DNA of 64,000 bases from an uncultured Methylomirabilota bacterium (GTDB lineage Bacteria > Methylomirabilota > Methylomirabilia > Methylomirabilales > 2-02-FULL-66-22): NCBI GenBank assembly GCA_963705305.1, contig OY970067.1:4928001-4992000 (forward strand). The letters run 5' to 3'. Shown piece after piece: positions 22,801 through 48,615 of the stretch (the stretch's first letter is position 1; the number at the start of each line of letters is the position of its first letter). The position numbers and the translations under genes were made by a program. The notes under the pieces are model-generated. The model was not told the origin of the DNA, did not search any database, and saw nothing but the letters and a program-made list of their open reading frames with translations.

Positions 22801-23835
22801 ATGAAGGCGATGATCTTGAGCCGACTCTCCCGCTTGGCGGACGAGCCCGCCCCGTTGCGGCTGGTCGACGATCTGCCGGAGCCGGTCCCCGGGGCCGGCG
22901 AGCTCTTGATCGGGGTCTCCGCCTGCGGGATCTGCCATACCGACATCGACGAGATCGAAGGCCGCACACCCCCCCCGCGCCTTCCTGCGATCCTCGGGCA
23001 CCAGATCGTCGGGAGGGTGCGGCGCGCAGGGGGCGATGCCGGCCGATTCGAGGTGGGGGACCGGGTAGGAGTCGCCTGGATCCACTCCGCCTGCGGCCGG
23101 TGCGCGTTCTGCCGGGAGGGCCGGGAAAACCTCTGCCCCGAGTTCGCGGCCACCGGCCGAGACGCCCCCGGCGGCTATTGCCAGCAGACCGTCGTGGCCG
23201 AGGAGTTCGCCTACAGGATTCCCGACGTCTTCTCCGACGCCGAGGCGGCCCCGCTCCTGTGCGCCGGCGCCGTCGGGTACCGCGCCCTGCGGCTGGCCGG
23301 CATGGAAAACGGGCGCACGCTCGGCCTCGCCGGCTTCGGCGCCTCGGCCCATTTGGTGATCCAGGCCGCCCGGCACGCGTATCCCGATGCCGCGATCTTC
23401 GTGTTCAGCCGAAGCGAGGGCGAGCGGCGCTTCGCCAGAGAGCTGGGGGCCGACTGGGCCGGCGCGATCGACGAGAGGGCGCCCGCGCCCATGGATTGCG
23501 CCATCGACACGACCCCGGTCTGGCTGCCGATCGTGCATATGCTGGCCGGGCTGGCCCCCGGGGGCCGGCTGGTCGTCAACGCCATCCGGAAGGAGGACGC
23601 CGACAAGGCATCGCTCCTCCACCTCGACTATTCCCGACACCTCTGGCTAGAGAAGGAAGTGATCAGTGTGGCCAACGTGACCCGGAAGGATGTGAGCGAA
23701 TTCCTCCGGCTGGCCGCCGAGATCCCCCTGAAGCCCCGCGTGCAGGAGTACGAGCTGGAGCAGGCCAACGAGGCGCTCCAGGAGATCCGGCAGCGGAAGA
23801 TCCGGGGCGGCAAGGTGCTCCGGATCGCATCATAG
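22801..23835 (+). CDS. Zinc-dependent alcohol dehydrogenase family protein
   Basis: CGICHTD, GHQ, CGRCAFC..ENLC, PLLCAG, GFGASA. Confidence 0.92.
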   Translation: MKAMILSRLSRLADEPAPLRLVDDLPEPVPGAGELLIGVSACGICHTDIDEIEGRTPPPRLPAILGHQIVGRVRRAGGDAGRFEVGDRVGVAWIHSACGRCAFCREGRENLCPEFAATGRDAPGGYCQQTVVAEEFAYRIPDVFSDAEAAPLLCAGAVGYRALRLAGMENGRTLGLAGFGASAHLVIQAARHAYPDAAIFVFSRSEGERRFARELGADWAGAIDERAPAPMDCAIDTTPVWLPIVHMLAGLAPGGRLVVNAIRKEDADKASLLHLDYSRHLWLEKEVISVANVTRKDVSEFLRLAAEIPLKPRVQEYELEQANEALQEIRQRKIRGGKVLRIAS

Positions 23836-23840
23836 CGCCA

Positions 23841-23918
23841 GCCGGATCGCTGGCGGCGCAGATCCTGGGGGTGTACTATTCGGCCCAGATCCTGTTTCTG
23901 GGCGCCGAGGTCTCTCAG
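23841..23918 (+). pseudogene. Fragment resembling the C-terminal TM segment of YihY/BrkB-family proteins
   Basis: AGSLAAQILGVYYSAQILFLGAEVSQ resembles the family motif AGSL..LLWVYYSAQI.FLGAE. Confidence 0.6.
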
Positions 23919-24001
23919 GGATCCGGCATCCGGCCGGGCTGGCGGTGATGATGCCCCCGGCCGCGACCCGCCCGGGGTCACGTTTCGGAGGAGCCTGAAG
24001 G

Positions 24002-25129
24002 GTGTTGGCCCTCTTTTCCGATCACTATGTGATCGACCTGCCGCCCAACCACAGCTTCCCCATCCAGAAATACCGGCTACCCGCTACACAAAGGTGTTGA
24101 AGATTCGCTTGTCAATAGGCGCGATTCCTCTGTGGTTACAGCGCATTCCGTCCTTTTCGGATTGAGCTGACATCGAGGAAGATTTCTTCCCCGACAAGGC
24201 GTTCCGATTCGGTCAACCAATTCATGCCGTTACTAGCGAAACGCCGACCGTTATCAACACCTTTGTGTAACGGCTAGAAATACCGGCTGATCCGGGAGCA
24301 ACTTCTCGCCGAGGGAACCCTGGCTCCCGACGAGCTCCTCGAACCCGGCCTCATCGAGCCGCCCGACGTCCGTCTGGTCCACACCCCGGCCTACTGGGAG
24401 CAGCTCGCTACGGGGAGCCTTTCCCCCGCCGCCGCCCGCCGCATGGGGCTGCCCTGGTCGGAATCCCTGCTGCGCCGCGCCCGGGCCTCGGTGCAGGGCA
24501 CGCTCACGGCCGGGCGCATCGCCATCCGGGAGCGCGTGGCCGTCAACCTCGCCGAGGGCACACACCACGCCTTTCCCGACCGGGGCGAGGGGTATTGCGT
24601 CCTCAACGACATCGCCATTGCCATCCGCTGTCTGCAATATGACGCCTGGATGCAGCGCATGGCCGTCATCGATTGCGACGTGCACCAGGGTAACGGCACT
24701 GCCGCCGTCTTCGCCGTCGAGCCCGATGTCTTCACCTTCTCCATCCACGGCGCCAACAACTACCCGTTGGTGAAGGTGCCGGGCAGCCTGGACATCCCCC
24801 TGCCCGACGGCACGGGGGACGCGGAGTACCTGACCCGCCTGGAGTCGGCGCTGCCGGAGATCCTGGAGGGGTTCCGGCCCGGACTGGTCTTCTACCTGGC
24901 CGGGGTCGATCCCCACGAGGGCGACCGCATGGGCCGGCTCCGCCTCACCCATGCAGGTCTGCGCCGGCGCGACGAGCTGGTCCTGACCGCCTGCCGGGAT
25001 GCCGGCATCCCGGTGGCCATCGCCCTGGGCGGGGGGTATGGAAAGGAGCTGCGGGGCACCGTCGAGGCCCACTGCAACACGGTCCGCGCCGCCCGGGCGG
25101 TGTTCGACGGCACCCCGCCGGCTCCATAG
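24002..25129 (+). pseudogene. Histone-deacetylase-family amidohydrolase disrupted by a 201-bp element
   Basis: GTG 24002 gives MLALFSDHYVIDLPPNHSFPIQKYR; the same frame resumes after the insert with GTHHA, G.CVLND, DCDVHQGNGT, GGGY; in-frame TGA at 24098. Confidence 0.9.
24077..24277. mobile_element. 201-bp MITE, copy 1 (24-bp TIRs, 9-bp TSD AAATACCGG)
   Basis: TIRs 22/24 matched; TSD at 24068-24076 and 24278-24286; identical to 37578-37778. Confidence 0.95.
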
Positions 25130-25217
25130 CCTTCGGCGTGCGACGAACGTCCGTCCTCCCACACCGCCTTCCGTCCACGGTCCCGGCACCGTCGTCTATG
25201 GCGGGCCGGACCGCCGC

Positions 25218-25979
25218 TCACGACTTGCCCGGCGGGGGCGGCGCGAATTCTCCATCGTCCCACAGCCGGTTCCGCTGGGGGTCCGCCCCTCCACAGTGAA
25301 CGATCCCCTGTCGGCAGAGCGCAGAGCGCCACTCGTATTTGATGAAGATCTTCTCCGCTGCCGTGCTCTCCGGGTCGAAGGCCACCACCCGCACCGGAGC
25401 ATACTCCCGCCCGCCAAAGCCCGTGCCGGCACTTTGGCGCTCCGCCTTGGCGGACGGCGCGGTTCGCGAGGGAAAGCCCGAGGAACCCGGGGACAGGCCC
25501 GGGGGGGGCTGGGGCCGCTGCACCTCGGGATAGACGGCCACCGCAATCACCCCCATCGCCGACTCGTCGCCAAAGGCCGCCGCGTAGGAGTCAGCCGCAT
25601 GGGTGAAGTAGAAGCGGTTGATGCTATCCAGACTGGTCCGCCATCCTTTGAACTCTCCCTCCTGGTACGGTTCCAGGATGTACATCCGCTCGTCGCCGGC
25701 CAGCCAGGACTGCCGGCCGGAGATGATGTTCCGCCCGTCCACCGCCACCACCACCCCGATGCGCCGGTTCAGCACATTCCGGACGACGATGCTGTAGTGA
25801 TCCCCGTACACCGCCTCGGCGTACGCCTTGCGATTCGGGAAGCTCGCCGCCGCCGCATACAGCGGCAACATTTGCCCGCTCTCCGACCGGATCTGCACAT
25901 CGACCGCCGTCCCCCCCACTCCGGCCCACGCGCCCGTGGCGATCCCCACCAGGCACACGCACAGCGCCGCGATCTTCAT
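25218..25979 (-). CDS. Exported hypothetical protein
   Basis: AAGGAGG RBS; signal peptide; VAVDGRNIISG, GWR..RFYFT, GVIAVAVY, AGTGFG. Confidence 0.8.
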   Translation of the reverse strand: MKIAALCVCLVGIATGAWAGVGGTAVDVQIRSESGQMLPLYAAAASFPNRKAYAEAVYGDHYSIVVRNVLNRRIGVVVAVDGRNIISGRQSWLAGDERMYILEPYQEGEFKGWRTSLDSINRFYFTHAADSYAAAFGDESAMGVIAVAVYPEVQRPQPPPGLSPGSSGFPSRTAPSAKAERQSAGTGFGGREYAPVRVVAFDPESTAAEKIFIKYEWRSALCRQGIVHCGGADPQRNRLWDDGEFAPPPPGKS

Positions 25980-26290
25980 GCATCCCTCCTTGTCTCGTGG
26001 TTCCAACGGCCTCCTGCCGCCTTGCCCCATTAGACACGCCCCTCCGCCAGAAGTTCCCCGGCAAGAGGGAGCGGGCGGTCCGGGCCTCTCCTGCGCACGG
26101 ATCCCGCCACGGAATCTTCCCGCTTCAGCTGCCGTTTTCAGATGTCAGGCAGAAGCTCGATCAGGGGAAGGTCTTGCTGCGGATCTGAGACGTCACGGAA
26201 GGAAACGAGCGGAACCGATCGGCGGATCGATCGGCGCCGGCCGGTGTATCCGGCGCGACCTTGCGGCAGGCCGGGGTGCGCCCCCGCCGA

Positions 26291-27265
26291 TTACGCCGCG
26301 GCCCGGCAAAGGAAATCGTTCACCGCGGCCCGCTGCTCGGCCGCGGTCCGGAGGTGATTCGCCGCATGGCGGAAGGACGCGGAGTTCGCCAGCCCCCTCG
26401 TGTACCAGCCGATGTGCTTCCGGGCGATGCGCACGCCGGCGTACTCGCCGTAAAAGCGGTAGAGCTCCTCGAGATGGTTGAGCAGCAGGGCGCGGATCTC
26501 GTCCACCGACGGCGGCGCTATCCGCCTCCCGGTCGTCAGGAAATGACCGATCTCGCGAAAAATCCAGGGACGGCCCAGCGCTGCGCGGCCGACCATGATG
26601 CCATCCGCCCCCGTGCGATCGAGCACAGCTTTGGCCTTCTCGGGTCCGTCCACGTCCCCGTTGGCGATGACCGGGATCCCGACCGACGCCTTCACCGCGG
26701 CGATGGTGTCGTACTCGGCCTCCCCGCCGAACATGCAGGCCCGCGTCCGCCCGTGGATGGCCAGCGCCCGGATGCCCGCAGCCTCGGCGATCTGCGCCAC
26801 CCGCAGGGCGTTCTTGTGCCCCCGGTCCCAGCCCGTGCGGATCTTGAGGGTGACGGGCACGTCCACCGCCCCGACCACCGCCTCCAGGATCCGCCCCACC
26901 AGGGCCTCGTCGCGCAAGAGGGCGGAGCCCGCCATCACGCTGCAGACCTTCTTGGCAGGGCAGCCCATGTTGATGTCGATGATCTGGGCCCCCTCCGCCG
27001 CGTTGTGGCGGGCCGCCTCCGCCATGAGGCGGGGGTCCGCGCCGGCGATCTGCACCGAGACGGGCGACGGCTCTCCCTCGTGGTCGGCGCGCCGCCGCGT
27101 CTTGGCCGCCCCGGAAAGGAGGGAGTTGCTGGTCACCATCTCCGAAACCGCCAACCCGGCCCCCAGCGATCGGCAGAGCTTCCGGAACGGACGGTCCGTC
27201 ACGCCGGCCATGGGAGCCAGGATCAGATTGTTGTCGAGCTGGTAGGAACCGATGCGCACCGACAC
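26291..27265 (-). CDS. dusB: tRNA-dihydrouridine synthase B
   Basis: LAPMAGVTD, DINMGCPAKKV, HGRTR, ARKHIGWY; start may be the GTG two codons downstream. Confidence 0.93.
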   Translation of the reverse strand: MSVRIGSYQLDNNLILAPMAGVTDRPFRKLCRSLGAGLAVSEMVTSNSLLSGAAKTRRRADHEGEPSPVSVQIAGADPRLMAEAARHNAAEGAQIIDINMGCPAKKVCSVMAGSALLRDEALVGRILEAVVGAVDVPVTLKIRTGWDRGHKNALRVAQIAEAAGIRALAIHGRTRACMFGGEAEYDTIAAVKASVGIPVIANGDVDGPEKAKAVLDRTGADGIMVGRAALGRPWIFREIGHFLTTGRRIAPPSVDEIRALLLNHLEELYRFYGEYAGVRIARKHIGWYTRGLANSASFRHAANHLRTAAEQRAAVNDFLCRAAA

Positions 27266-27292
27266 ACTCCGCCGGCCAGCCAGCGCCGGCCG

Positions 27293-27826
27293 TCACTCCG
27301 CCAGATACTTGCGGTCGGCGGGGGACCAGGCGCGCTGGTTGAGCAGCTTCGCGCCGCGGCCCATGAACACCGCCCCGGTGCGCGCCTGCTCTTTGATCCC
27401 GAACGGACGCAGCACCTCCAGCAGCTTGTCCAGCTTGTCCGGCTCCCCCGTCGCCTCCAGGATCAGCGTGGTCGTGGAGACATCCACGATGCGGGCCTTG
27501 AACAGGTCGGCGAGGCTGACCACCTCCGGCCGGGTCTTGGCGGTCACCCCCACCTTGACCAGCAGCATCTCGTAGGCCAGCTGGTCGCGGTCGGCCGTCA
27601 CGTCCGCCACCTTGACCGCGCCGATGAGCTTGCGGAACTGCTTGGCCACCTGATCCAGGGCCGTGCTGGGCCCGTCCACCACGATGGTGATCCGGGTCAG
27701 CCCCGGCAGCTCGGACGCCCCGGCAGTGAAGCTCTCCACGTTATACCCGCGCCGGGCGAACAGGTTGCCCATGCGGGCCAGCATGCCCGGCTCGTCCTGC
27801 ACCAATGCCACCAAAACGTGCCTCAT
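27293..27826 (-). CDS. ilvN: Acetolactate synthase regulatory (small) subunit
   Basis: ACT domain DEPGMLAR..LFARRGYNVES; ARTG; ATG overlaps the ilvB stop. Confidence 0.92.
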   Translation of the reverse strand: MRHVLVALVQDEPGMLARMGNLFARRGYNVESFTAGASELPGLTRITIVVDGPSTALDQVAKQFRKLIGAVKVADVTADRDQLAYEMLLVKVGVTAKTRPEVVSLADLFKARIVDVSTTTLILEATGEPDKLDKLLEVLRPFGIKEQARTGAVFMGRGAKLLNQRAWSPADRKYLAE

Positions 27827-29511
27827 CGCTTCGGCGCCCTCCCCCTCGGATCCTCCATGAAATCGGCGTTGCTGGTCCCCGGCTGGACCATGGGGTAGAC
27901 GTTCTCGGCCCCCTCCACCAGGCAGTCCAGGAGGAAGGGGCCGCTGTGCTCCGCTGCGGCGGCGAACGCGGCCGGCAGCTCGCTCGTGGCGGTGACGCGC
28001 CGCGCCGGGATGCCGTAGCTGGCGGCCAACTGGACGTAGTCGGGGCTGCTGATGGGGGTGCCGATGTACCGGGCCCCGTGGAACAGCTCCTGCCACTGCC
28101 GAACCATGCCCAGGTACCCGTTGTTCATGATGACGATCTTGAGCGGCAGCCGCTCCTGGGTCACCGTGGCCAACTCCTGGAGGTTCATCTGGAAGCTTCC
28201 GTCCCCGACGACGACCCAGACCGGCTCGCCGATGCGGGCGGCCTGCACCCCCAGCGCGGCGGGCAGCGAGTACCCCATGGTGCCCAGGCCGCCGGAGGTG
28301 AAGAAGCTGTTGAGGCGCCGGAACTGGTAGAACTGGGCCACCCACATCTGGTGCTGGCCGACATCGCTCACCACGGCGGCCTCCCCCCCCGTGGCCCGGT
28401 GCAGCGCGCGGATAACCTCCTGCGGGGGCAGGGCGCCCTGGCTGTGGACCTCCAACGGGTGGCCCTGCCGGAAGGTCTCGATGTGCGCCAGCCAGTCGCG
28501 GTGGTCCAGCTCGGGTAGCTCCGCCGTCAGCGCCTCCAGCACCAGCTTGACGTCGCCCACCATGGGCAGGGTGGCGGGCACCCGCTTGCCGATCTCGGCG
28601 GGATCGATGTCCACGTGCAGCAGCTTGGCCTTGGGGGCAAAGTGCGGGAGGCTGCCGGTGAACCGGTCGTCCATCCGCATTCCCAGAGCGATGAGCAGGT
28701 CGGCGTCCTGCACGGCCAGGTTGGCCCAGGCCACCCCGTGCATGCCCGCCATCCCGAGGTGGAGCGGGTGGTCCGCCGAGAGGGCGCTCAGCCCCAGCAG
28801 GGTGCTCACCACGGGGGTGGTGGTCCGCTCGGCAAACCGGCGCAGCTCTTCCCAGGCCTTGCCCACGTGGACGCCGTGCCCGGCGATCACGACGGGGCGC
28901 TGAGCATCCGCGATCAGCTCCGCCGCGCGCTTGATCTGGTAGGGGGCGGAGCGCACCACCGGGCGATACCCCGGACGCGCGATCCGCTCCGGCTCTTTGA
29001 GGGCGCAGGGGGCCGTGAGGACGTCCTTGGGGATATCCACCAGCACCGGGCCGGGCCGGCCGGTCCGCGCCAGGAAGAAGGCCTCCCGGAGGACGCGCGC
29101 CAGGTCTTGACCCTGCCGCACCAGGTAGTTGTGCTTGGTGATGGGCAAGGTGATGCCCGTGATGTTGATCTCTTGGAAGGCGTCTGTCCCGATCACCGGA
29201 TCGGCAACCTGCGCCGTGACGGCCAGCATCGGCACGGAGTCCAGCATGGCCGTGGCAATGCCGGTGACCAGATTGGTGGCCCCCGGTCCCGAGGTCGCCA
29301 CGCAGACCCCCACCCGGCCGGTGGCCCGTGCATAGCCGTCGGCCGCGTGGGCGGCGGCCTGCTCGTGCCGCACCAGGACGTGATGGATCTGCGGGTACTT
29401 GCCGAGCGCGTCGAACATGGGGAGGGCGGCCCCGCCAGGATACGCCCAGATGACATCCACCCCCTCACGGACGAGGCATTCCCAGAGCACTTCCCCACCG
29501 GTGTAGCGCAT
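27823..29511 (-). CDS. ilvB: Acetolactate synthase large subunit
   Basis: RHEQ, TSGPGATN, DAFQE, GMHG, DVGQHQMW, GDGSFQMN; AGGAGG RBS. Confidence 0.95.
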   Translation of the reverse strand: MRYTGGEVLWECLVREGVDVIWAYPGGAALPMFDALGKYPQIHHVLVRHEQAAAHAADGYARATGRVGVCVATSGPGATNLVTGIATAMLDSVPMLAVTAQVADPVIGTDAFQEINITGITLPITKHNYLVRQGQDLARVLREAFFLARTGRPGPVLVDIPKDVLTAPCALKEPERIARPGYRPVVRSAPYQIKRAAELIADAQRPVVIAGHGVHVGKAWEELRRFAERTTTPVVSTLLGLSALSADHPLHLGMAGMHGVAWANLAVQDADLLIALGMRMDDRFTGSLPHFAPKAKLLHVDIDPAEIGKRVPATLPMVGDVKLVLEALTAELPELDHRDWLAHIETFRQGHPLEVHSQGALPPQEVIRALHRATGGEAAVVSDVGQHQMWVAQFYQFRRLNSFFTSGGLGTMGYSLPAALGVQAARIGEPVWVVVGDGSFQMNLQELATVTQERLPLKIVIMNNGYLGMVRQWQELFHGARYIGTPISSPDYVQLAASYGIPARRVTATSELPAAFAAAAEHSGPFLLDCLVEGAENVYPMVQPGTSNADFMEDPRGRAPKR

Positions 29512-29674
29512 GGTCGGCTGCCGCCCTCCTCCTGGATTGCCCCCGGCCGGCGCGCGGGCGGGCCGGACAGACGGCAGTTCACATTGATGGGCCGAATCGG
29601 ATCTGCGGACCACCCGAAAGGCGTCCGGGCCAGGACAAGAATCGCAGCCCCCCCTCGCCTCCGGCGTGAGGGGG

Positions 29675-29703
29675 ACCATACCAGCGGCCGCCGCTCCGGT
29701 CAA
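29675..29703 (-). promoter_or_regulatory. sigma70-type promoter candidate for ilvBN-dusB
   Basis: TTGACC-17 bp-TATGGT with extended -10 TG. Confidence 0.55.
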
Positions 29704-29765
29704 GGGCGGAGTGACCCCCGACGGTTCCCGGCACCCTCAGGGCGAGACCGGCTCTCCCCGTTGCT

Positions 29766-30061
29766 CTGGCAGGTTGCTGAAAAGCTCTTTTCGCTGAGGC
29801 TGCTCAAAAAGGCCCAGATGTCCCTCGACTTCGCTCGGGACCGTGAGCGGTTCGACTGTGCTCACCGCCCTGAGCTTGTCGAAGGGCCTGTCGAACGGCA
29901 AGGCGGCCTCACCCATCCAGCGGGATGGGTACCCGGGGCGGGGCACCCGCCACAGGCGGGTCAAGGCGTACTTCCACTACGCCGCAGCGAGTGCCCGAGC
30001 GCGGGGGTACCCATCCGGAGGATGGGTCTCCGCAGATGGGCCTTTTTCAGCAGCCTGCCAG
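29766..30061. repeat. TIR-bounded, hairpin-rich repeat element (long form)
   Basis: 18-bp TIRs 17/18 matched (CTGGCAGGTTGCTGAAAA / TTTTCAGCAGCCTGCCAG); core closely matches 43701-43948. Confidence 0.85.
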
Positions 30062-30835
30062 GAACTCGTCCACCACCCGCCGGGTCTGCTCCAGCGTTTC
30101 CCGGGTGTGCAGCTCCAGCACCCAGAAGTCGCAGCCGGCGGCGACCAGGCCGTCAAGGGCTTCGCGGATGTCCGCCAGGCCCTGGGGGGCAAAGTGGACG
30201 TCGTGTCGCTCCACGAGATACACGTGGCTGGACAAGATGGGCGTGGGAATGCTCCGCAGGAACTCGATGGCCGTCCCCCGCCCCTCCCGCACCCAGGCAC
30301 TTCCCTGGGCGTGACCGAGATCGAAGGTCACCGGCGCCCCCGTGGCCTTGAGCAGCCGGCCGAATGTCTCGGGATCGCTGGTCGGCCCGCCCCGCAAATT
30401 CTCCAGGGTGATGCGGGTGCCCCGCCGTGCGGCATGCTCCGACAGGCGCCCGACATTCTTGAGCAGGGTCTCCCAGGACAGCTCCTCCGGCTCCGGTGCG
30501 AAGGAGCCGACGTGAAGGTTCAAATGATGGACGCCCAGCTCCGCGGCGGCGTCAACGTACGCTTCGAGGACACGGGAGGCCGCCGCCGCGTGATCCGGGT
30601 CCCGGTGGCCGATCTCCAGGTCGGTGTAGGGGGCATGCGCCGAGGAGAGCGGGCTGGCCGTTCGCAGCTCTTCCAGCCGTCGCTCGCGCCGCTTCCGCGG
30701 AACCATCAGCCGCCAGCCGTCCCAGGCCCACTCCACCCCGTCGTAGGCATGCGAGACGGCATATTCCTGAATGGCGCGCAGATCCTTCCCGAACGGGGTC
30801 TGGCAAAACAAGAGATGTGGACGCATGTTCCCCAT
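30047..30835 (-). CDS. Sugar phosphate isomerase/epimerase-family TIM-barrel protein
   Basis: HAPYTDL, NLHVG, TLENL, TFDLGHA, VLEL; stop codon lies in the repeat end. Confidence 0.8.
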   Translation of the reverse strand: MGNMRPHLLFCQTPFGKDLRAIQEYAVSHAYDGVEWAWDGWRLMVPRKRRERRLEELRTASPLSSAHAPYTDLEIGHRDPDHAAAASRVLEAYVDAAAELGVHHLNLHVGSFAPEPEELSWETLLKNVGRLSEHAARRGTRITLENLRGGPTSDPETFGRLLKATGAPVTFDLGHAQGSAWVREGRGTAIEFLRSIPTPILSSHVYLVERHDVHFAPQGLADIREALDGLVAAGCDFWVLELHTRETLEQTRRVVDEFLAGC

Positions 30836-30849
30836 TTCCCCCCCCATGA

Positions 30850-31695
30850 TCACGGCGCCAGGAGGCTGGCGACCACCTCCGAGAGGGGGGGTTGCTGCCC
30901 GGCATCCTTGTAGCCGGCAAGGCGCCGGTACGCCTCCGCCGCCGCCCGCGAGAACCCGTCCGGCAGTCCTGCCGCGGCGAAAGTGTCCGCGCTCTCCTCC
31001 ATCTCGCCCACGAATCGCCAGGCCTTCCGCACGCTCCCGCGCAGGGCGGCTTCGACCCGCGCCGGAAGATCGGGCAGCGACCGTGCCCATTCCTGGAGCA
31101 AGGGTTCGTCCACCCCCTCCTTGACGGCCAGCGCACGGACTGTCAGGAGCAGGGCCGCCGCGCCCTTCGTGTAGGCTGCATAGGCCACCTTCAGGGTCGA
31201 CGCCGCTCCGACTGGACCGTCCAGGACGATCGTCTCCATGGGCCCGGACCCGAAGATGGCGGCGACGCGGCGGGCCTCCGTTCCCGAGAGATAGAGCCGG
31301 GTCGTGCCGGCTGCCTTCGGAGGCGGACCCACGATGCCCCCGTCCACACACCGGGCTCCCACCGATTCCAGTAGGGCTCCGATCGCGCGCGCCGTCGCGG
31401 GCGAGACGGCGTTGGCGTCCAGATACATCCCCGCAAACCCCAGGGCGGCGACCTTGCCGGCGAGGCCGAGCGCCGCCTGCGGCGGACAGACCGAAACGAT
31501 CACCTCGCTCTCCCGGACAATCACCGGAAGCGTGCCGGCGTCGACCAGACCGGCCGCTTCGGCACGGGCGCGGCTCTCGCGGCTCCGCCCCTCTGAGCAC
31601 CAGGACACCTTCGCACCGCCGCTCCGAAGAGCGACCCCTATGATGCTCCCCATTTCTCCCGGGTGCAGCAGACCGACCGCGATCTGACTCATCAT
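30850..31695 (-). CDS. NAD(P)-dependent oxidoreductase (6PGD/HIBADH-like, DUF1932 type)
   Basis: LLHPGEMG, DANAVSP, DGGIVGPP, KAWRFVGEMEE. Confidence 0.88.
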   Translation of the reverse strand: MMSQIAVGLLHPGEMGSIIGVALRSGGAKVSWCSEGRSRESRARAEAAGLVDAGTLPVIVRESEVIVSVCPPQAALGLAGKVAALGFAGMYLDANAVSPATARAIGALLESVGARCVDGGIVGPPPKAAGTTRLYLSGTEARRVAAIFGSGPMETIVLDGPVGAASTLKVAYAAYTKGAAALLLTVRALAVKEGVDEPLLQEWARSLPDLPARVEAALRGSVRKAWRFVGEMEESADTFAAAGLPDGFSRAAAEAYRRLAGYKDAGQQPPLSEVVASLLAP

Positions 31696-31856
31696 TCCCC
31701 TCCGCGTCACGTCCAGGCAATCCTCCGATATCCCCCGCTCGAACCGCATCATAGCGGATGAAGCCCCGGTTGTCGCTCGGAAGTCCTGCCCCCAGAGGAG
31801 CCGGCCCGCCGGACTTCCACATAGCCGGAGCCTGGGGATCCACAGCGACGAACCCC

Positions 31857-31930
31857 CTGACATGATGCTGAAATACCTGCTTTCACCCCGGCTGCTCAAG
31901 CTGTAGATGGGCCTTTTTCAGCAGCCTGCG
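31857..31930. repeat. Minimal, internally deleted member of the GCTGCTGAAAAA repeat family
   Basis: ATGCTGAAA..GGCTGCTCAA..AGATGGGCCTTTTTCAGCAGCCTGC, collinear with the ends of the long copies. Confidence 0.7.
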
Positions 31931-31937
31931 ATCCAGC

Positions 31938-33008
31938 CTACACCTCGATCACAACTTTGCCGATGCTCTCGCCGCTCTGAAGATACCGGAGAGCCGTCGG
32001 TGCGTCTCCGAAGGCGAAGCGCCGGCCGATGAATGGAGGCCTTCGCAGGAGGGGGAGGAACCGCTCGACGGCGTCGAGCAATCGGTCCGCACGGTCCCAC
32101 AGCCAGATCAGGTTGAAGGCCATCACGCTCTTGTTGTCGGCAATCATCCGCAGCGGGTCCAGCCGAGGCCGGCGAAGATATCGGAACACCAGACGGGCAT
32201 AATCCGGCCGGGCTCGTCTCGACATCAAGTCGGCCGCGCCGTACAGGACGTACCGCCCCTCGGGCCGCAGCCGCTCGTACCCGGGCTGAAAGAACGGGCC
32301 GCCCACGGCGTCGAGCACCAGATCGAGCCCGCTCAATCCCAGGGCCGCCAACGCTCGATCGAGCTGCAGCCCGAAATCGCGGCGATCGCGTACGATCACC
32401 CCGTCCGGCGGCAGCCCGCACGGCCCCACCAGGAAATCCCGCTTGGCAGGCCGCCCGACCGTGGCTATCACGCGCGCCCCGGCCGTCCGGAGGATCTCAA
32501 GCGCGTTGAGGCCCACGCCGCCCGCGGCCGAGTGAACGAGGACACCATCGCCGGCCTCCAGGGCCCCCAGCTCCATGAGAGCGTACCAGGCCGTGAGACC
32601 CTGCACCAGACAGGCCGCACCCTCCGCGTAGCTCCACTCCGGCGGCAGCGGCCGGAGGTAGCGCACGTCCACGTTGACCGCCGTCGCATATCCGCCGAAG
32701 CGTATGAGTCCCATGACCCGGTCGCCAGGACGCAGCGGCGGCGGCGCCCCGCCGCCCGATCCCGGGACCGTGACGGCGGGGTCCACCGCCTCCACCGTGC
32801 CCGCGATCTCCAGGCCGGGGATGAAGGACCCCTTCGGGGTGGCGGAATAGAGGCTCAGGCAGGCAAAGACGTCGGCGAAGTTCAGGCCGACGGCCTTGAC
32901 CGCCACCCGCACCTCGCCCGGCCCGGGTACGGCGATCTCATCGCTCTCGCGCTGCAGCCGGTCGAGCGACCCGGCCCGCCGCACGCGCCAGACCTCGCGA
33001 GTCAGCAT
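31938..33008 (-). CDS. MDR-family NADPH:quinone oxidoreductase / VAT-1-like protein
   Basis: GLNFAD, PGLE, HSAAGGVG, FNLIWL, SIGKVV. Confidence 0.88.
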   Translation of the reverse strand: MLTREVWRVRRAGSLDRLQRESDEIAVPGPGEVRVAVKAVGLNFADVFACLSLYSATPKGSFIPGLEIAGTVEAVDPAVTVPGSGGGAPPPLRPGDRVMGLIRFGGYATAVNVDVRYLRPLPPEWSYAEGAACLVQGLTAWYALMELGALEAGDGVLVHSAAGGVGLNALEILRTAGARVIATVGRPAKRDFLVGPCGLPPDGVIVRDRRDFGLQLDRALAALGLSGLDLVLDAVGGPFFQPGYERLRPEGRYVLYGAADLMSRRARPDYARLVFRYLRRPRLDPLRMIADNKSVMAFNLIWLWDRADRLLDAVERFLPLLRRPPFIGRRFAFGDAPTALRYLQSGESIGKVVIEV

Positions 33009-33087
33009 TGGGACGGCCTCTTTTGCCAACGAGGAGCGGCTGGGGAGGTTCAAGCGGCCGCGCCCGGCCTGCGGGATCGACCCTATC

Positions 33088-33789
33088 CTACAGTCGCTTC
33101 AGGCAGCGGGCGATACCGGAGGCGATGGCCGCCGCCGTCCTCTCCCGCCAGCCCGGCTGCTCCACGGCCAGCTCTTCCTGCCGGTTGATGATCACCCCGG
33201 CTTCCAGGAGGACGGCCGGCTCGGTGGCCCGCTTCAGGACGACCAGGTTGTCGAAGTAGTGGACGCCGTTCTTGGCGTCGGCGAACGGCCGGTCCTCTCC
33301 CGGGATCGGCTCTGCGTGGTAGCGGGACGGGGTGCGGCCCGCCGCCCGGAGCGCTTCTCCCATGGCCGAGGCGCAGGCCAGGCTTTGAGCCACATCGGGA
33401 TTGGCTCGCGAGACGAACAGCGAGAAGCCCGCAAAGCGGTCGGAGTACGGGCGGGGCGTCCCGGCGACATCCCAGGTGGCGAGGTACCGGGGCTGGACGG
33501 AGTCGTGGTGGATGGAGAGGAAGAAGTCCGTCCCCGCGGCGGCGGCAGGGCGGGATATGAGATCCGCCACATCCCCCCGCTCGTTGATGAGCCGCACCTC
33601 AATGCCGCGGCCCTCCAGCGCGGCCTTCACCGCCCGCGCCAGGTCCCGGTTGAACTCGAACTCCGGCCGCCCCCGGGCGCTCTCGGCCCCCGGATGGATG
33701 TAGGAGTGCCCCACGTCCACCGCCACGATGGGCGCCCGCCCGGGCGTCGGATGCGCACACGCCCCCAGGAGTCCCAACGCCAGGGTCAC
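33088..33789 (-). CDS. N-acetylmuramoyl-L-alanine amidase (Amidase_3), probable lipoprotein; start uncertain
   Basis: VDVGH, E.EFN, SIHHD, LLEAG motifs; LGAC lipobox. Confidence 0.8.
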   Translation of the reverse strand: MTLALGLLGACAHPTPGRAPIVAVDVGHSYIHPGAESARGRPEFEFNRDLARAVKAALEGRGIEVRLINERGDVADLISRPAAAAGTDFFLSIHHDSVQPRYLATWDVAGTPRPYSDRFAGFSLFVSRANPDVAQSLACASAMGEALRAAGRTPSRYHAEPIPGEDRPFADAKNGVHYFDNLVVLKRATEPAVLLEAGVIINRQEELAVEQPGWRERTAAAIASGIARCLKRL

Positions 33790-33838
33790 GGCGATACGCC
33801 GTTCCCTGCCGGCCAGCGGGGCGGCTGGACACCTCCCC

Positions 33839-34276
33839 CTACTGGCCGACCAGGCGGTAGAAGTAATCGCCCTCCGCCGCGCGGACATGGAACCAGCCCA
33901 CATCCGAGCCCCCCTCGGTCAAATACACGGTGGCGACATCGGCCCGGCGGACCGGGGAGTTCAGGAAGAGCGCGGAAAATGCGGCGGCGGCCTTTTTCAC
34001 GAGGCTATCCCGCCCAGCCGCGCTCAGGCCGTCCCAAGCTTTGGAATTGACTGTGAGATTCCCGAAGGGTTCCGTGGACGGACGCTTCGTCCCCGTCGAC
34101 CGGAAGGGTCCGAAGACTGACGCCAGTTCCGGGTCCTTGGCAACGGCATCGTTGAACTGCTGGGTGAAGGCTTTGAGGTTGGCGCGGGGGATGTTCTTCA
34201 CCTCCGCCCCGTCATTGGACGTCGCACAGGAAGTCAGGCAGACAACAGAAAGCGCCAGCAGACTAAGAAAACGCAT
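33839..34276 (-). CDS. Hypothetical lipoprotein
   Basis: GGAGGT RBS; MRFLSLLALSVVCLTSC lipobox. Confidence 0.7.
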   Translation of the reverse strand: MRFLSLLALSVVCLTSCATSNDGAEVKNIPRANLKAFTQQFNDAVAKDPELASVFGPFRSTGTKRPSTEPFGNLTVNSKAWDGLSAAGRDSLVKKAAAAFSALFLNSPVRRADVATVYLTEGGSDVGWFHVRAAEGDYFYRLVGQ

Positions 34277-34495
34277 CACGACCTCCATGGCTCGAGCGCA
34301 CGAAGCGTTCACCCCTGACCGCTGCTTTCCGAGGGGGAGGTAATCCTATGCCGAAGATGTCTCACCGCCAAGATGTAAAAATTTGGACGGCGGGAATGGG
34401 CAAAATACCAGAGGTCTGGAACCGCGTCGCATCCCCTGGTGGGGCGTTCCCATGTCTTGAATCACAGCCGCGGGGCGCCCTGAAAACTGTAAAGC

Positions 34496-34516
34496 CTTGG
34501 CGTCATGGCGGTTCAA
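34496..34516. repeat. Short dispersed repeat CTTGGCGTCATGGCGGTTCAA
   Basis: 21-bp exact match with 55801-55821. Confidence 0.65.
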
Positions 34517-34994
34517 CAGCTCTTTCGGATCAGGGGCAACTCGCAGGAACACGCGCGGCCAGCGACCCATTGGATCCGGCAGCAACTGGTGCGGGCGAGT
34601 CCTCCCACCAGCCGGGAAGCTTGGAAGCAGAGCCTATGCCTCACGGTCCCCGGTGTCAAGCGGGCCGAGGGCCGGGCCGGATGTTGCTGCGCATGATCTC
34701 AGGAGCATCCAGGCCAAGGGGCGGGAAGCGAAACCGGGCTTGATTGCCACGCCTTACGGTAACAGGAATGCCGTGCATCCATGGCGGCGCGGGAGGGCTT
34801 GGATGATTGTGCGGCAGAACAACCTTGGACCCGGGGGAATGTCGGGATTGACCCGAATGCGAGGGAAATGCTATGAGATTATGGCTTTCCTCGTCTCCGC
34901 ACGGCTCATCACCAAGGCGAGAATCGGCCGAGGCAGTGGACAGGCGGAAGAACGGGCCGCCGGCGGTCCACACCCTTCATTTCCCGGGGGGACA

Positions 34995-35855
34995 GTGTTT
35001 CTACAGCAGGTGATGAACGGCCTCGTTCTGGGCGGGGCCTACGCGCTCATCTCGGTGGGGATGACCATGATCTTCGGGATCATGAACATCTCCAATTTCG
35101 CCCATGGAACGATCTACATGCTGGGGGGCTACTGCATCTATTTCTTCAGCACCGCCCTCGGCCAGCCCTTCTTCCTGGCGGTGGCCCTCTCGATGTTCGT
35201 GGTCGGGCTGGCCGGCATCGCCATGGAGCGGATCGTCTTCCGGCCCGTCTACGGCGGGCCCGTTCTGAACGACCTGCTGATCGCGCTGGGGCTGTCCTTC
35301 TTCCTGGAGAACGGCGCCCTGCTCCTCTGGGGCTCTGAGACCCGGGGCGTCCGGACCCCGTATACGGACGTCGTCCTCCATTTCCTCTCGATCTCGGTGA
35401 CCCTGCAGCGGCTCATCGTCCTGGTGGCCAGCATGGTCCTGATCGCCGCCCTGTACGCCTTCCTCAACCACACGCGATTCGGGAAGGCGATCGTCGCAAC
35501 CTCGCAGAACCCCAAGGGGGCCGCCCTGGTCGGGATCGATCTCGACCGGGTGTACATGGTCACCTTCGCCATCAGCTCCGGCCTGGCGGCCGCCGCGGGT
35601 GCGCTGCTCGCGCCGCTCTTCTACGTGTTTCCCACTATGGGCAGCATGCCGCTCCTGAAGGCGTTCGTCGTGGTGGTACTGGGCGGGATGGGAAACGTCC
35701 AGGGCGCCGTGGTGGGGGGCTTCCTGGTGGGGATCGCGGAAAGCCTGGGCGGCGCCTACATCTCGTCGGATTACAAGAACGTCTTCTCCTTGATCATCCT
35801 GATCGCCGTGCTCCTGATCCGGCCCCAGGGCCTCTTCGGAAGGAGCGAGACATAG
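34995..35855 (+). CDS. livH: Branched-chain amino acid-type ABC permease (LivH-like)
   Basis: NGLVLG..YAL, NFAHG, VVLGGMG, RPQGLFG. Confidence 0.88.
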   Translation: MFLQQVMNGLVLGGAYALISVGMTMIFGIMNISNFAHGTIYMLGGYCIYFFSTALGQPFFLAVALSMFVVGLAGIAMERIVFRPVYGGPVLNDLLIALGLSFFLENGALLLWGSETRGVRTPYTDVVLHFLSISVTLQRLIVLVASMVLIAALYAFLNHTRFGKAIVATSQNPKGAALVGIDLDRVYMVTFAISSGLAAAAGALLAPLFYVFPTMGSMPLLKAFVVVVLGGMGNVQGAVVGGFLVGIAESLGGAYISSDYKNVFSLIILIAVLLIRPQGLFGRSET

Positions 35856-36835
35856 TGGAGAACCGGCTCGCCGCCCTCCTCGGGCTCGTGCTTCTCGGTC
35901 TCGCCCTCGCCTTTCCGGTCCTGGTGACGGATTCCTACTACCAGCATATCATGAACGTCATCTTCCTGTTCGCCATCAGCATCTACGGCTTCAACATCAT
36001 CACCGGCATCGCCGGCCAATTCAACATCGCCCACGCCGGCTTCATCGGGATCGGCGCCTATGCCTCCGCCCTGCTGACGGCCCGGCTTCCGCTGTCGTTC
36101 TGGGAAGCCATGCCGCTGTCCATCCTCGTCACGGCGGTCTTCGGATTCCTCATCGGATATCCGTCCCTCCGCCTCCGGGGGGTCTACTTCGCGCTGACCA
36201 CGCTGGCCTTCGGAGAGATCCTCTCTCTGGTGTTCGAGAACTGGATCTCGGTCACCGGCGGCCCCATGGGCATCACCAAGATTCCGCCACCAACGCCTCT
36301 CCGCCTTCCCGGCGGAGTGCACCTCGCCTTCGACGACAAGTCCGGCTTCTACTACCTCTGCCTGATCTCTCTCCTCGTCGCCATGTACGTCAATCGCCAG
36401 CTCCTGCGATCACGTCTGGGAAGGGCCATGCTGGCCGTCCGGGAGAACGAGGACCTAGCGCAGTCGGTGGGCGTCCCCATCGCCCGGACCAAGATGATTG
36501 CGTTCGTCCTGGCGACCATGTTCCTCGGCCTCACGGGAAGCCTGTACGCCCACTACTTCCGCTTCATCAGCCCGGTGAGCTTTTCGGCCGGAGAGACCTT
36601 CCGCCACGTCACCATGCTCATCGTCGGAGGAAAGGGGACGCTGCTCGGGCCGCTGGTGGGCGCGGCCATCTTCACGGCCCTCCCCGAAGTCCTCCGGGGC
36701 ATCGAAGATTACCAGTGGATCGCGTATGGGGTGATCCTCATGCTGTGTGTCGTCTTCCTGCCCAAGGGGATCGCGGGCTGGCTCCGGGACGTCCGGGGTC
36801 GCCGGGGCAATGGCGCGGCCGCGGAGGATCGGTGA
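35855..36835 (+). CDS. livM: Branched-chain amino acid-type ABC permease (LivM-like)
   Basis: LRLRGVYFALTTLAF, GRAMLAVRENE, PKGI. Confidence 0.88.
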   Translation: MENRLAALLGLVLLGLALAFPVLVTDSYYQHIMNVIFLFAISIYGFNIITGIAGQFNIAHAGFIGIGAYASALLTARLPLSFWEAMPLSILVTAVFGFLIGYPSLRLRGVYFALTTLAFGEILSLVFENWISVTGGPMGITKIPPPTPLRLPGGVHLAFDDKSGFYYLCLISLLVAMYVNRQLLRSRLGRAMLAVRENEDLAQSVGVPIARTKMIAFVLATMFLGLTGSLYAHYFRFISPVSFSAGETFRHVTMLIVGGKGTLLGPLVGAAIFTALPEVLRGIEDYQWIAYGVILMLCVVFLPKGIAGWLRDVRGRRGNGAAAEDR

Positions 36836-37671
36836 GTCTCCTCCTGTGCGAGGCCCTGCAGCGGGACTTCGGCGGCCTGGCGGCGGTCAACCGGGTGAGC
36901 CTCGGGGTGACCGAGGGGGAGATCGTCGGCCTCATCGGCCCGAACGGCGCGGGGAAGACCACGCTCTTCAACCTGATCACCGGCTTCCTCCGCCCGACCT
37001 CCGGCCGGATTGTCTATGCGGGAAAGGACATCACCGGGCTCGAGCCCCACGTGATCGGGGGCCTGGGTCTCGTGCGGACGTTCCAGAAGATCAACGTGTT
37101 CGGGGAGCTGAGCGTCCTGGAGAACGTCCTGATCGGCCGGCACCTGCATGCCCGGGCCGGATTTCTACGGGCGCTCCTCCAGAGCCGGGCCTACCGCCGC
37201 GAGGAGCGCGCGTCCCGGGAGAAGGCCCTGGGCATCCTCGACTTTGTGGGCCTGGCGGGCTGGGAGGATCAGCAGGCCGGGAATTTGCCTTTCGGCCTCC
37301 AGCGCGCGCTCGGCATCGCGACGGCCCTGGCGGCCGGGCCCAGGCTGCTCCTCCTGGACGAGCCCGCCTCGGGGATGCATACGGAAGAGAAGCGGGCGAT
37401 CGTCGAGGTCATCCGCCGGATCCACCGGGCGGGCACGACCCTGCTCCTGGTCGAGCACGATACGAACGTCGTGATGAGCCTCTGCAGCCGCATCGTCGTC
37501 CTGAATTCGGGGAGCGTCCTCATGGAGGGGACCTCCACAGATGTCCAGCACGACCCCAGGGTCATCGAGGTGTATCTCTACCCGCTACACAAAGGTGTTG
37601 AAGATTCGCTTGTCAATAGGCGCGATTCCTCTGTGGTTACAGCGCATTCCGTCCTTTTCGGATTGAGCTGA
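36832..37671 (+). CDS. livG: ABC ATP-binding protein (LivG-like) with C-terminus replaced by MITE sequence
   Basis: GPNGAGKT, RTFQ, LLDEP, VEHD, DPRVIEVYL, then 30 MITE-derived residues; ancestral stop at 37822-37824. Confidence 0.88.
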   Translation: MSLLLCEALQRDFGGLAAVNRVSLGVTEGEIVGLIGPNGAGKTTLFNLITGFLRPTSGRIVYAGKDITGLEPHVIGGLGLVRTFQKINVFGELSVLENVLIGRHLHARAGFLRALLQSRAYRREERASREKALGILDFVGLAGWEDQQAGNLPFGLQRALGIATALAAGPRLLLLDEPASGMHTEEKRAIVEVIRRIHRAGTTLLLVEHDTNVVMSLCSRIVVLNSGSVLMEGTSTDVQHDPRVIEVYLYPLHKGVEDSLVNRRDSSVVTAHSVLFGLS

Positions 37672-37778
37672 CATCGAGGAAGATTTCTTCCCCGACAAGG
37701 CGTTCCGATTCGGTCAACCAATTCATGCCGTTACTAGCGAAACGCCGACCGTTATCAACACCTTTGTGTAACGGCTAG
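37578..37778. mobile_element. 201-bp MITE, copy 2 (9-bp TSD GGTGTATCT)
   Basis: Identical to 24077-24277; TSD at 37569-37577 and 37779-37787. Confidence 0.95.
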
Positions 37779-37804
37779 GGTGTATCTCGGGAAAGGGTAC
37801 CGGC

Positions 37805-38512
37805 GTGCTGCTGGAGCTGAATGACATCGACGCCTACTATGGGCGCGCGCAGGCCCTGCGGGGGGTCTCGCTCCAGGTGGGGCCGGGAGAGGTCGTCGCG
37901 ATCCTGGGCGCCAACGGGGCCGGCAAGTCCACCACGCTCCTGACGATCTCGGGGCTGCTGCGCCCGCGGCAGGGCCGCATCCTGTTCCAGGGAAAGCCGA
38001 TCGGCCGGGAGAAGCCCGGCCGGATTGTCGGGATGGGCATCTCGCACTGCCCGGAGGGGCGGGCGCTCTTTCCCGACATGACCGTGCAGGATAATCTCTC
38101 GCTTGGGGCGTTCCTCCGGCGCGACCGGCCGGGCATCGCCGAGGACCTCGACCGCGTCTATCGGCATTTCCCCCGCCTCCAGGAGCGGAAGGGCCAGCTC
38201 GCCGGCTCGCTCTCCGGGGGAGAGCAGCAGATGCTGGCCATCGGTCGGGCCCTCATGAGCCGGCCGCGACTCCTCCTCCTCGACGAGCCGTCGCTGGGGC
38301 TCTCCCCCATCCTCGTGGAGGAGATGTTTCGCATCATCGAGGGCATCAACCGGGAAGGGACCGCGGTCCTCCTGGTGGAACAGAACGTGGGTGCGGCGCT
38401 GGAGGCCGCGCACCGGGCATACGTGATGGAGACTGGGCGGATCGTCTTCTCGGGCACCAAGGAGGAGCTGCTTCACAACGATCGGGTGCGGCGCGCGTAT
38501 CTCGGAGGCTGA
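37805..38512 (+). CDS. livF: ABC ATP-binding protein (LivF-like)
   Basis: GANGAGKS, PEGR, LSGGEQQM, DEPSLGL, AYLG. Confidence 0.92.
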   Translation: MLLELNDIDAYYGRAQALRGVSLQVGPGEVVAILGANGAGKSTTLLTISGLLRPRQGRILFQGKPIGREKPGRIVGMGISHCPEGRALFPDMTVQDNLSLGAFLRRDRPGIAEDLDRVYRHFPRLQERKGQLAGSLSGGEQQMLAIGRALMSRPRLLLLDEPSLGLSPILVEEMFRIIEGINREGTAVLLVEQNVGAALEAAHRAYVMETGRIVFSGTKEELLHNDRVRRAYLGG

Positions 38513-38576
38513 GGAGCGGTTGGCGAGGGGTCGGAAGGCCAATCCGGCATGGAGGTGAGACATGGGAGGCAGACAC

Positions 38577-43593: not shown

Positions 43594-43700
43594 CAAAAAT
43601 GAGACACACGTCACAGATTTCGCGTGACGTGCGCCACCCAACACTCGCTCTGCTTTTCGGGAGGCCCCGGGAGTCCGCCCATGTCCGACCACCGCGTCCA

Positions 43701-44838: not shown

Positions 44839-45538
<700 letters not shown>

Positions 45539-45546
<8 letters not shown>

Positions 45547-48583: not shown

Positions 48584-48615
48584 TGGCCGACCGTGTGCGC
48601 GCAGGGGAGCACACA

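What the first reader, a model, noticed from the sequence alone, without database searches (positions are those of the whole stretch)
24068..37787. Recently active 201-bp MITE with Tn5/IS50-like ends: two identical copies, both inside genes
Seen: 24077-24277 and 37578-37778 are identical by my base-by-base reading and ~50% GC (101/201) in a much more GC-rich background. They have 24-bp TIRs (CTACCCGCTACACAAAGGTGTTGA versus reverse-complemented right end CTAGCCGTTACACAAAGGTGTTGA, 22/24). Each copy has its own 9-bp target duplication (AAATACCGG; GGTGTATCT). Both sit in coding sequence in the same orientation relative to the host gene. Known: IS50/Tn5 (IS4 family) makes 9-bp duplications and its outside end is CTGACTCTTATACACAAGT; the right end here matches it at 12/19 positions. 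Inference: this is a non-autonomous IS4/IS50-group derivative mobilised in trans, since no transposase lies in the window. Two identical copies 13.5 kb apart suggest a recent burst.
Basis: partly seen in the sequence, partly recalled or inferred. Interest (0 to 1): 0.78.

Follow-up and report, generated by a model that had tools for sequence, protein, structure and literature searches.

The report
Small non-autonomous transposon interrupting two genes
Two identical copies of a 201-base "hitch-hiker" transposon with no transposase gene have recently jumped into two ordinary genes of an NC10/Methylomirabilis-like bacterium; this is a new example of a well-known kind of mobile DNA.

Summary
Positions 24077-24277 and 37578-37778 are 100% identical over 201 nt. 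Each copy has 24-nt terminal inverted repeats (22/24), is 50% GC in a ~67-70% GC background, and has its own perfect 9-bp target duplication. Orthologues and an in-window paralogue read straight across both empty sites.

Copy 1 splits an HDAC/AcuC-like gene after codon 25. Copy 2 replaces the last 14 codons of a livG-like ABC ATPase with 30 element-encoded codons and uncouples livF. All six frames of the element carry stops, and it matches no Rfam family, protein, plasmid or phage. None of 59 window ORFs is a transposase.

A third copy lies elsewhere on the same 5.6-Mb contig. The same 24-nt end bounds MITEs with unrelated cores and 9-bp duplications in a Methylomirabilales MAG and a Pseudomonadota MAG. 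It also occurs as a single end beside a contig end in a Desulfomonilaceae MAG.

All seven ends fit the published IS50-subgroup end signature (7 of 7 positions; duplication 8-9 bp). The other eight informative IS4-type signatures fail.

Verdict: a real, recently active MITE, probably IS50-type. No cognate transposase was found, so family membership and a "burst" remain unproven. It is ordinary in kind and apparently uncatalogued.

The parts
24002..24076 (+). 5' fragment (25 codons, GTG start) of an HDAC/AcuC-like gene, cut off by copy 1
   Evidence: Translation VLALFSDHYVIDLPPNHSFPIQKYR is colinear with the N-termini of intact orthologues P0001, P0005, P0009 and P0047.
24068..24076 (.). Left target-site duplication of copy 1 (AAATACCGG)
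   Evidence: identical to 24278-24286.
24077..24277 (+). MITE copy 1, 201 bp (TIR-L 24077-24100, TIR-R 24254-24277)
   Evidence: Stops in all six frames. Whole-element hairpin z -5.8 and -7.3 for the two strands; core alone z -1.8.
24278..24286 (.). Right target-site duplication of copy 1
24278..25129 (+). 3' fragment of the HDAC/AcuC-like gene (283 codons, then stop)
   Evidence: Pfam Hist_deacetyl E 5e-55. About 80% identity to 304-307-aa orthologues named NC10/Methylomirabilis. The record's own gene call is a truncated 228-aa ORF from ATG 24443 (P0007).
36832..37671 (+). livG-like ABC ATPase ORF, now ending in a 30-codon MITE-encoded tail
   Evidence: Pfam ABC_tran. P0121 (279 aa) maps to 36832-37668. 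Tail YPLHKGVEDSLVNRRDSSVVTAHSVLFGLS, then TGA.
37569..37577 (.). Left target-site duplication of copy 2 (GGTGTATCT)
37578..37778 (+). MITE copy 2, 201 bp (TIR-L 37578-37601, TIR-R 37755-37778)
37779..37787 (.). Right target-site duplication of copy 2
37780..37824 (+). Displaced original 3' end of livG (VYLGKGYRRAAGAE, then stop)
   Evidence: The in-window paralogue ends ...VIEAYLGRK..., so the empty site reads ...VIEVYLGKG...
37805..38512 (+). livF-like ABC ATPase; its GTG start overlapped the original livG end and now lies 134 nt after the new livG stop

Best explanation
[quoted passage not shown] It is a non-coding core of 153 bp between two 24-bp terminal inverted repeats.

Proposed mechanism (inferred): the repeats are the binding and cleavage sites of a DDE transposase encoded elsewhere in the genome. 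That enzyme excises or copies the element and joins it to target DNA cut with a 9-bp stagger. Repair of the stagger gives the 9-bp duplications.

The ends carry the signature of the IS50 (Tn5-type) subgroup of the IS4 family, so the most likely helper is an IS50-subgroup transposase, which moves DNA by hairpin-mediated cut-and-paste.

Shown:
- The anatomy, and precise insertion into two genes.
- At least 3 copies on the same 5.6-Mb contig.
- The same 24-bp end bounding unrelated MITE cores in other phyla.
- Copy 1 breaks the HDAC/AcuC-like gene, probably a null allele.
- Copy 2 swaps the last 14 residues of LivG for 30 element-encoded ones and ends the overlap between livG and livF. This is probably tolerated.

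Inferred: trans-mobilisation, the family of the helper, and the cut-and-paste chemistry.
For: 1. Structure: identical 201-nt copies, 22/24 TIRs and 9/9 TSDs that differ between copies.

2. Precise insertion:
- Intact orthologues read ...FPIQKYRLIREQL... across the copy 1 site.
- The paralogue and the displaced livG end show ...VIEVYLGKG... across the copy 2 site.

3. Non-autonomous:
- Stops in all six frames.
- No homologue for the 52-aa frame.
- No homologue for the 34-aa frame in 1.84 billion representative proteins.
- No hit by tblastn on plasmids.
- 0 of 59 window ORFs has a transposase domain.

4. Multi-copy and recent:
- Its first 234 residues have no match in the window.

5. Family of ends: the genome scan gave 4 loci, 3 of them real and 1 a chance hit.
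- L003 (Methylomirabilales MAG): 219 bp, TSD GGCGAATCT.
- L004 (Pseudomonadota MAG): 175 bp, TSD TCCTTCACC.
- L001 (Desulfomonilaceae MAG): one end, 117 nt before the contig end.
- All carry CTAGCCG[T/G]TACACAAAGGT[G/A]TTGA, with unrelated cores.

6. IS50 link:
- All 7 ends match the IS50-subgroup signature CW------Y---CA-A--W- at 7/7 positions.
- Uniform chance is 4.9e-4, and 101 of 200,000 shuffles of the 20-mer reach 7/7.
- The subgroup's duplication length is 8-9 bp.
- Of the other nine signatures in that table, only the two-letter IS10 one (CT, DR 9) is met.
Against: - No autonomous element and no transposase with these ends was found. The window, the flanks of L001, L003 and L004 (11 ORFs), PLSDB plasmids and phages all gave nothing.
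- In the scan of 185,579 species-representative genomes, no locus had two ends about 1.3-1.6 kb apart. That scan needed an exact 19-base core.
- The seven ends are related to one another, so their 7/7 scores are one observation, not seven.
- The signature was chosen from ten candidates after the fact.
- Nine-bp duplications are also made by IS outside the IS4 family, for example ISAba12 with its MITEAba12.
- The MITE core shows no remnant of a transposase gene.
Confidence: 0.8

Rival explanations
1. It is a MITE, but its helper transposase belongs to a family outside IS4/IS50 that also makes 9-bp duplications. The IS903 group of IS5 is one example (ISAba12 with MITEAba12). IS1 and IS256 types are others that I recall making 8-9 bp duplications.
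For: No transposase was seen anywhere. ISAba12 and MITEAba12 give 9-bp TSDs with 16-bp TIRs. The end-signature test was post hoc.
Against: The ends start with CT and meet the IS50-subgroup signature at 7/7. The eight other informative IS4-type signatures fail. From recall only, the ends of IS903, IS1 and IS256 types begin with G or GG, not CT; this was not tested with a tool. ISLre2, another family that I recall making 9-bp duplications, is 92% confined to Firmicutes (passage of PMC9208149), and the hosts here are from other phyla.
Confidence: 0.17
2. The two copies are not transposition products. They are an assembly artefact, or a segment spread by recombination or gene conversion.
For: Identical repeats can be mis-placed by assemblers. 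No reads were available to check.
Against: Each copy has its own perfect 9-bp duplication. Removing the element plus one duplication restores orthologue-colinear proteins at both sites. A third copy exists. The same end-and-TSD architecture occurs in independent assemblies from other lineages.
Confidence: 0.02
3. The element is kept for a function of its own: an in-frame peptide module like Rickettsia RPEs, a self-splicing or regulatory RNA, or a mobile promoter or terminator.
For: 201 + 9 = 210 bp is a multiple of three. The whole unit folds strongly (z -5.8 and -7.3). Copy 2 leaves most of LivG intact.
Against: Every frame has stops, so neither host gene reads through. There is no Rfam match at E<=1. 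The core alone folds no better than chance (z -1.8, 5 of 200 shuffles). No promoter-like or terminator-like site was found in either region. Cores are unrelated between lineages.
Confidence: 0.02

Closest known systems
IS50/Tn5 and the IS50 subgroup of the IS4 family (De Palmenaer et al. 2008, PMC2266710; section 6 with Table 1 and further passages read)
   Same: Ends begin with CT. All seven conserved positions of the subgroup's end signature are present. The 9-bp target duplication lies within the subgroup's 8-9 bp range.
   Different: No transposase gene is present: 201 bp against 1350-1550 bp. The TIRs are 24 bp. No IS50-type protein is linked to these ends.
MITEAba12 of Acinetobacter, with ISAba12 as proposed parent (PMC6382973; outline, sections 8 and 9 read)
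   Same: A short non-coding element with imperfect TIRs and 9-bp TSDs. It is richer in AT than its host, is found inside genes (hns), creates premature stops and gene-MITE fusions, has few copies per genome, and is mobilised in trans.
   Different: MITEAba12 is 113 bp with 16-bp TIRs, and its parent IS is identified in the same genome. Here the element is 201 bp with 24-bp TIRs, the end signature is IS50-type, and the parent is unknown.
IS10 subgroup of IS4 (same Table 1)
   Same: CT ends and 9-bp duplication.
   Different: The published signature is only two letters, so the match carries no information.
Rickettsia palindromic elements and other intragenic MITEs (review PMC10969869; passages read)
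   Same: Palindromic small repeats found inside coding sequence.
   Different: RPEs insert in frame and are translated through. This element stops translation in every frame.

Membership tests
Prokaryotic MITE | Small size (tens to a few hundred bp) with terminal inverted repeats | tested here: met
   201 bp with 24-nt TIRs, 22/24.
Prokaryotic MITE | Flanking target-site duplications that differ between copies | tested here: met
   9/9 TSDs at 4 of 4 complete copies: 2 in the window, plus L003 and L004.
Prokaryotic MITE | No transposase coding capacity | tested here: met
   Stops in all six frames. No homologues for the frames searched: the 52-aa, 34-aa and 42-aa frames.
Prokaryotic MITE | More than one copy per genome | tested here: met
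   Two copies in the window plus a third on the same 5,645,311-nt contig, seen through P0122. The whole-genome count was not obtainable.
Prokaryotic MITE | Mobilised in trans by a transposase that recognises the TIRs | not testable with these tools
   No cognate transposase was found. This needs the full genome or an assay.
IS4 family, IS50 subgroup (derivative of) | End signature CW------Y---CA-A--W- (Table 1, PMC2266710) | tested here: met
   7/7 positions in all 7 ends. Chance is 4.9e-4, and 101 of 200,000 shuffles reach it.
IS4 family, IS50 subgroup (derivative of) | Direct repeat of 8-9 bp | tested here: met
   9 bp in 4 of 4 copies.
IS4 family, IS50 subgroup (derivative of) | Single-ORF transposase with DDE and Y(2)R(3)E(6)K motifs | not tested
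   No transposase is linked to these ends in the window, the loci, plasmids or phages.
IS4 family, IS50 subgroup (derivative of) | An autonomous element of 1350-1550 bp bounded by the same ends | tested here: inconclusive
   The scan of species-representative genomes, which needed an exact 19-base core, found only MITEs and one end at a contig end. MAG assemblies often break at IS copies.
IS5 family, IS903 group (ISAba12 type) | 9-bp TSD together with that group's own TIR sequence | not tested
   The TSD length fits. I had no tool-derived ISAba12 or IS903 end to compare, and my recollection that those ends begin with GGC is not a test.
In-frame coding palindromic elements (RPE-like) | The host ORF reads through the insert | tested here: not met
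   Host frames stop after 7 codons (copy 1) and 30 codons (copy 2).
Known structured RNA or self-splicing element | Match to an Rfam family | tested here: not met
   0 matches at E<=1 over 23500-38500.

The most novel reading that the evidence does not exclude
The 24-bp end CTAGCCG-K-TACACAAAGGTGTTGA may mark an undescribed, cross-phylum IS50-type transposon lineage. It is seen in Methylomirabilota, Pseudomonadota and Desulfobacterota. Its ends are almost invariant, yet its MITEs arise repeatedly with unrelated, host-specific cores. In that case the ends, not a deleted parent, are what is inherited. The autonomous partner was not detectable in 185,579 species-representative genomes at exact-core level. 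It might be rare, carry divergent ends of its own, or be a chromosomally fixed transposase.
Probability: 0.2. Interest if true: 0.45.

Novelty: new member of a known kind. Interest (0 to 1): 0.3.

Why it matters
- It documents recent transposon activity in the little-studied NC10/Methylomirabilota lineage.
- It explains two odd gene calls: a truncated 228-aa HDAC-like ORF and a LivG with a foreign tail. It also explains at least one spurious ORF elsewhere in the genome.
- It gives a 24-bp probe for finding the helper transposase and for tracking insertion polymorphism in populations.
- The sharing of one end sequence across phyla, with unrelated cores, is a small but usable case for studying how MITEs are born.
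- It does not change any larger picture.

Tried and rejected
1. Rfam scan of 23500-38500 at E<=1: nothing.

2. blastn of the 201-mer against plasmids and phages: nothing.

3. blastn of the 37-nt end region:
- Plasmids gave 3 records at E=5. Two are homologous Azospirillum plasmids, where the match lies 59 nt outside an IS1595-family element that has its own different TIRs. One lies in a Paracoccus coding region. I treat all three as chance.
- Phages gave 4 hits at E 0.5-6. The best lies inside a coding region.

4. The Paenibacillus locus L002 from the genome scan lacks the CTAG terminus and lies in coding sequence. I dropped it as chance; about 4 chance hits were expected for 19 fixed bases.

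5. Hunt for the parent through peptides encoded by the MITE core:
- 52-aa frame: 4 word-sharing candidates, none scoring.
- 34-aa frame: 0 hits in 1.84 billion representatives.
- tblastn of the 34-aa and 42-aa frames on plasmids: none.
- The 28-aa ORF at the L001 contig end: only E 5-6 noise.

6. Literature string searches for the TIR core: 0 papers for the 15-mer. Only APOBEC primer coincidences turned up for the 13-mers.

7. Supplements and papers:
- The IS4-paper supplements hold almost no text and gave no match.
- The supplement of the 2024 MITE census (PMC11602168) is too large to read, so whether that catalogue lists this element is unchecked.
- Two papers were not held.

8. Promoter and terminator scans of both insertion regions: 0 sites.

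Full report
**Observation**

The two stretches 24077-24277 and 37578-37778 are a two-copy, 201-nt direct repeat at 100% identity. A script confirmed string identity. GC is 0.5025, against a window mean of 0.669. The local 200-nt GC profile dips to 0.53 and 0.505 only at the two copies.

Each copy begins with CTACCCGCTACACAAAGGTGTTGA. Read on the other strand, each ends with CTAGCCGTTACACAAAGGTGTTGA, which is 22/24. This consensus occurs nowhere else in the 64 kb even with 3 mismatches allowed, and 0 matches are expected in shuffles.

Copy 1 is flanked by AAATACCGG on both sides and copy 2 by GGTGTATCT on both sides.

**The insertions are precise**

Copy 1:
- Upstream, a GTG-started frame gives VLALFSDHYVIDLPPNHSFPIQKYR.
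- Downstream, the same frame resumes KYRLIREQLLAEG... and runs 283 codons to a stop at 25129.
- The downstream piece is a histone-deacetylase/AcuC-type domain (Pfam E 5e-55).
- Its best relatives are 304-307-aa proteins at about 80% identity. Two carry the names 'candidate division NC10' and 'Candidatus Methylomirabilis'.
- The four that I read begin M[YL]AL[YS]SD..[VL]I[DE]LP..H.FPIQKYRL[IT]RE[QK]L.
- So element plus one duplication is an exact insert after codon 25.
- The host frame stops 7 codons into the element and again at the element's last codon. The record's own gene call is therefore a 228-aa stub from ATG 24443 (P0007).

Copy 2:
- It lies in a livG-like ABC ATPase of a livH-M-G-F-K cluster.
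- The protein reads ...DPRVIEVYL, then 30 element-encoded residues, then TGA.
- After the element the old frame continues VYLGKGYRRAAGAE and stops.
- A livG paralogue in the window ends ...VIEAYLGRK....
- The livF start (GTG 37805) used to overlap the livG end. It now lies 134 nt after the new stop.
- Most of LivG survives, and the stored Pfam calls for P0121 still include the C-terminal BCA_ABC_TP_C motif.
- I infer that copy 1 is a null allele and that copy 2 is probably tolerated.

**The element is non-autonomous and has no detectable function of its own**

- All six frames carry stops.
- The 52-aa frame found no protein longer than 92 aa.
- The 34-aa frame found nothing among 1.84 billion representatives.
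- tblastn against plasmids found nothing.
- Rfam gives no match.
- The strong fold of the whole unit (z -5.8 and -7.3; DNA z -5.5) comes from TIR pairing. The 153-nt core alone scores z -1.8.
- No promoter-like or terminator-like sites were found.
- None of 59 window ORFs scanned (42, 17) has a transposase domain.

**Copy number**

I searched with a 40-aa query made of 10 LivG residues plus the 30-residue tail. It returned 2 proteins from 3 candidates.
- One is the window's own LivG fusion (P0121).
- The other is P0122, 264 aa with no Pfam domain and a junk-like composition. It is listed with the same longest-contig length of 5,645,311 nt.
- P0122 ends in the identical 30-residue tail.
- Its first 234 residues have no match in the window.

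So a third copy lies elsewhere on that contig. This route only sees copies that a called ORF enters in one of six frames, so three is a floor. A 'burst' is not shown. Two copies 13.5 kb apart fit either many copies genome-wide or local hopping.

**Relatives elsewhere**

- L003 (Methylomirabilales MAG): a 219-bp element at 2997-3215 with the same ends and TSD GGCGAATCT.
- L004 (Pseudomonadota MAG): a 175-bp, 28.5% GC element at 1467-1641 with TSD TCCTTCACC.
- L001 (Desulfomonilaceae MAG): one end, 117 nt before the contig end.
- L002 (Paenibacillus): lacks the CTAG terminus and lies in coding sequence. I count it as the expected chance hit.

The cores are unrelated. Similarity stops exactly at base 24. 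Each core is poorer in GC than its host: 0.50 against 0.62, 0.285 against 0.47, and 0.50 against 0.67. No transposase lies in the flanks (11 ORFs).

Oriented after the fact, the four TSDs share G-W-A at positions 4-6. With n=4 this is weak.

**Which transposase?**

Table 1 of De Palmenaer et al. 2008 (PMC2266710, section 6 read) gives end signatures and duplication lengths for seven IS4 subgroups and three related families.
- All seven ends (window L and R, L003 L and R, L004 L and R, L001) meet the IS50-subgroup signature CW------Y---CA-A--W- at 7/7.
- Uniform chance for this is 4.9e-4, and 101 of 200,000 shuffles reach it.
- All seven ends also meet the two-letter IS10 signature.
- The other eight signatures score between 1/4 and 4/8.
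- IS50 and IS10 are the two subgroups with 8-9 or 9 bp duplications.

It rests on DNA ends only. The seven ends are not independent. The signature was picked from ten candidates.

I could not test the defining protein features (DDE plus YREK), because no element carrying a transposase between such ends was found. Nothing turned up in plasmids, in phages or in the genome scan. Families outside IS4 that make 9-bp duplications, such as ISAba12 with MITEAba12, remain possible.

**Novelty**

Full-text searches for the TIR core found no paper. The 13-mers matched only unrelated primers. A search for MITE and IS papers listed none among its top ten that mentions Methylomirabilis.

ISfinder and the supplement of the 2024 MITE census could not be consulted, so 'uncatalogued' is provisional.

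In kind this is a textbook MITE. It is new only as a family member and for its host lineage. I rate it as a new member of a known kind, interest 0.3.

Noticed in passing
window 29766-30064, 43699-43948 and 31892-31929: A second, unrelated repeat family. Two intergenic units are 91% identical over 222 nt and are bounded by inverted GGCTGCTGAAAAAGGCCCA-type ends. Copy a carries about 47 extra nt. A minimal hairpin version lies between two minus-strand genes at 31892-31929. The 18-mer occurs 5 times within 3 mismatches, against 0.04 expected. It looks like another MITE or REP-like element.
   Followed up: partly
window 34496-34536, 54112-54152, 55801-55841: A 41-nt motif (CTTGGCGTCATGGCGGTTCAA...) occurs in three copies at 63-78% identity, near gene starts. 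Its nature is unknown.
   Followed up: no
window 34497-39767 and 44839-49868: Two paralogous liv-type branched-chain amino-acid ABC transporter clusters lie in opposite orientation. They account for inverted repeats I1-I4. Only the + strand cluster carries the MITE.
   Followed up: partly
window 24443-25129; P0122 (outside the window): The MITE distorts gene calling. The split HDAC-like gene is on record as a 228-aa stub (P0007). A 264-aa ORF of junk-like composition (R/P/G-rich) that runs into a third MITE copy is on record as a protein.
   Followed up: yes
L005 3001-3021 (Azospirillum sp. TSA2s plasmid p1): A 20/21 match to the TIR core without the CTAG terminus lies 59 nt outside an IS1595-family element that has its own 32-nt TIRs at 3080-3111 and 4250-4281. 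The same match is in an A. oryzae plasmid. At E=5 it is probably chance, but a decayed solo end is not excluded.
   Followed up: partly
L001 3040-3075: Just inside the Desulfomonilaceae end there is a GC-rich hairpin (AAAATGGGACGGC...GCCGTCCCATTTT) and then a 28-codon ORF open to the contig end. This could be the start of a full-length element cut off by the assembly.
   Followed up: partly
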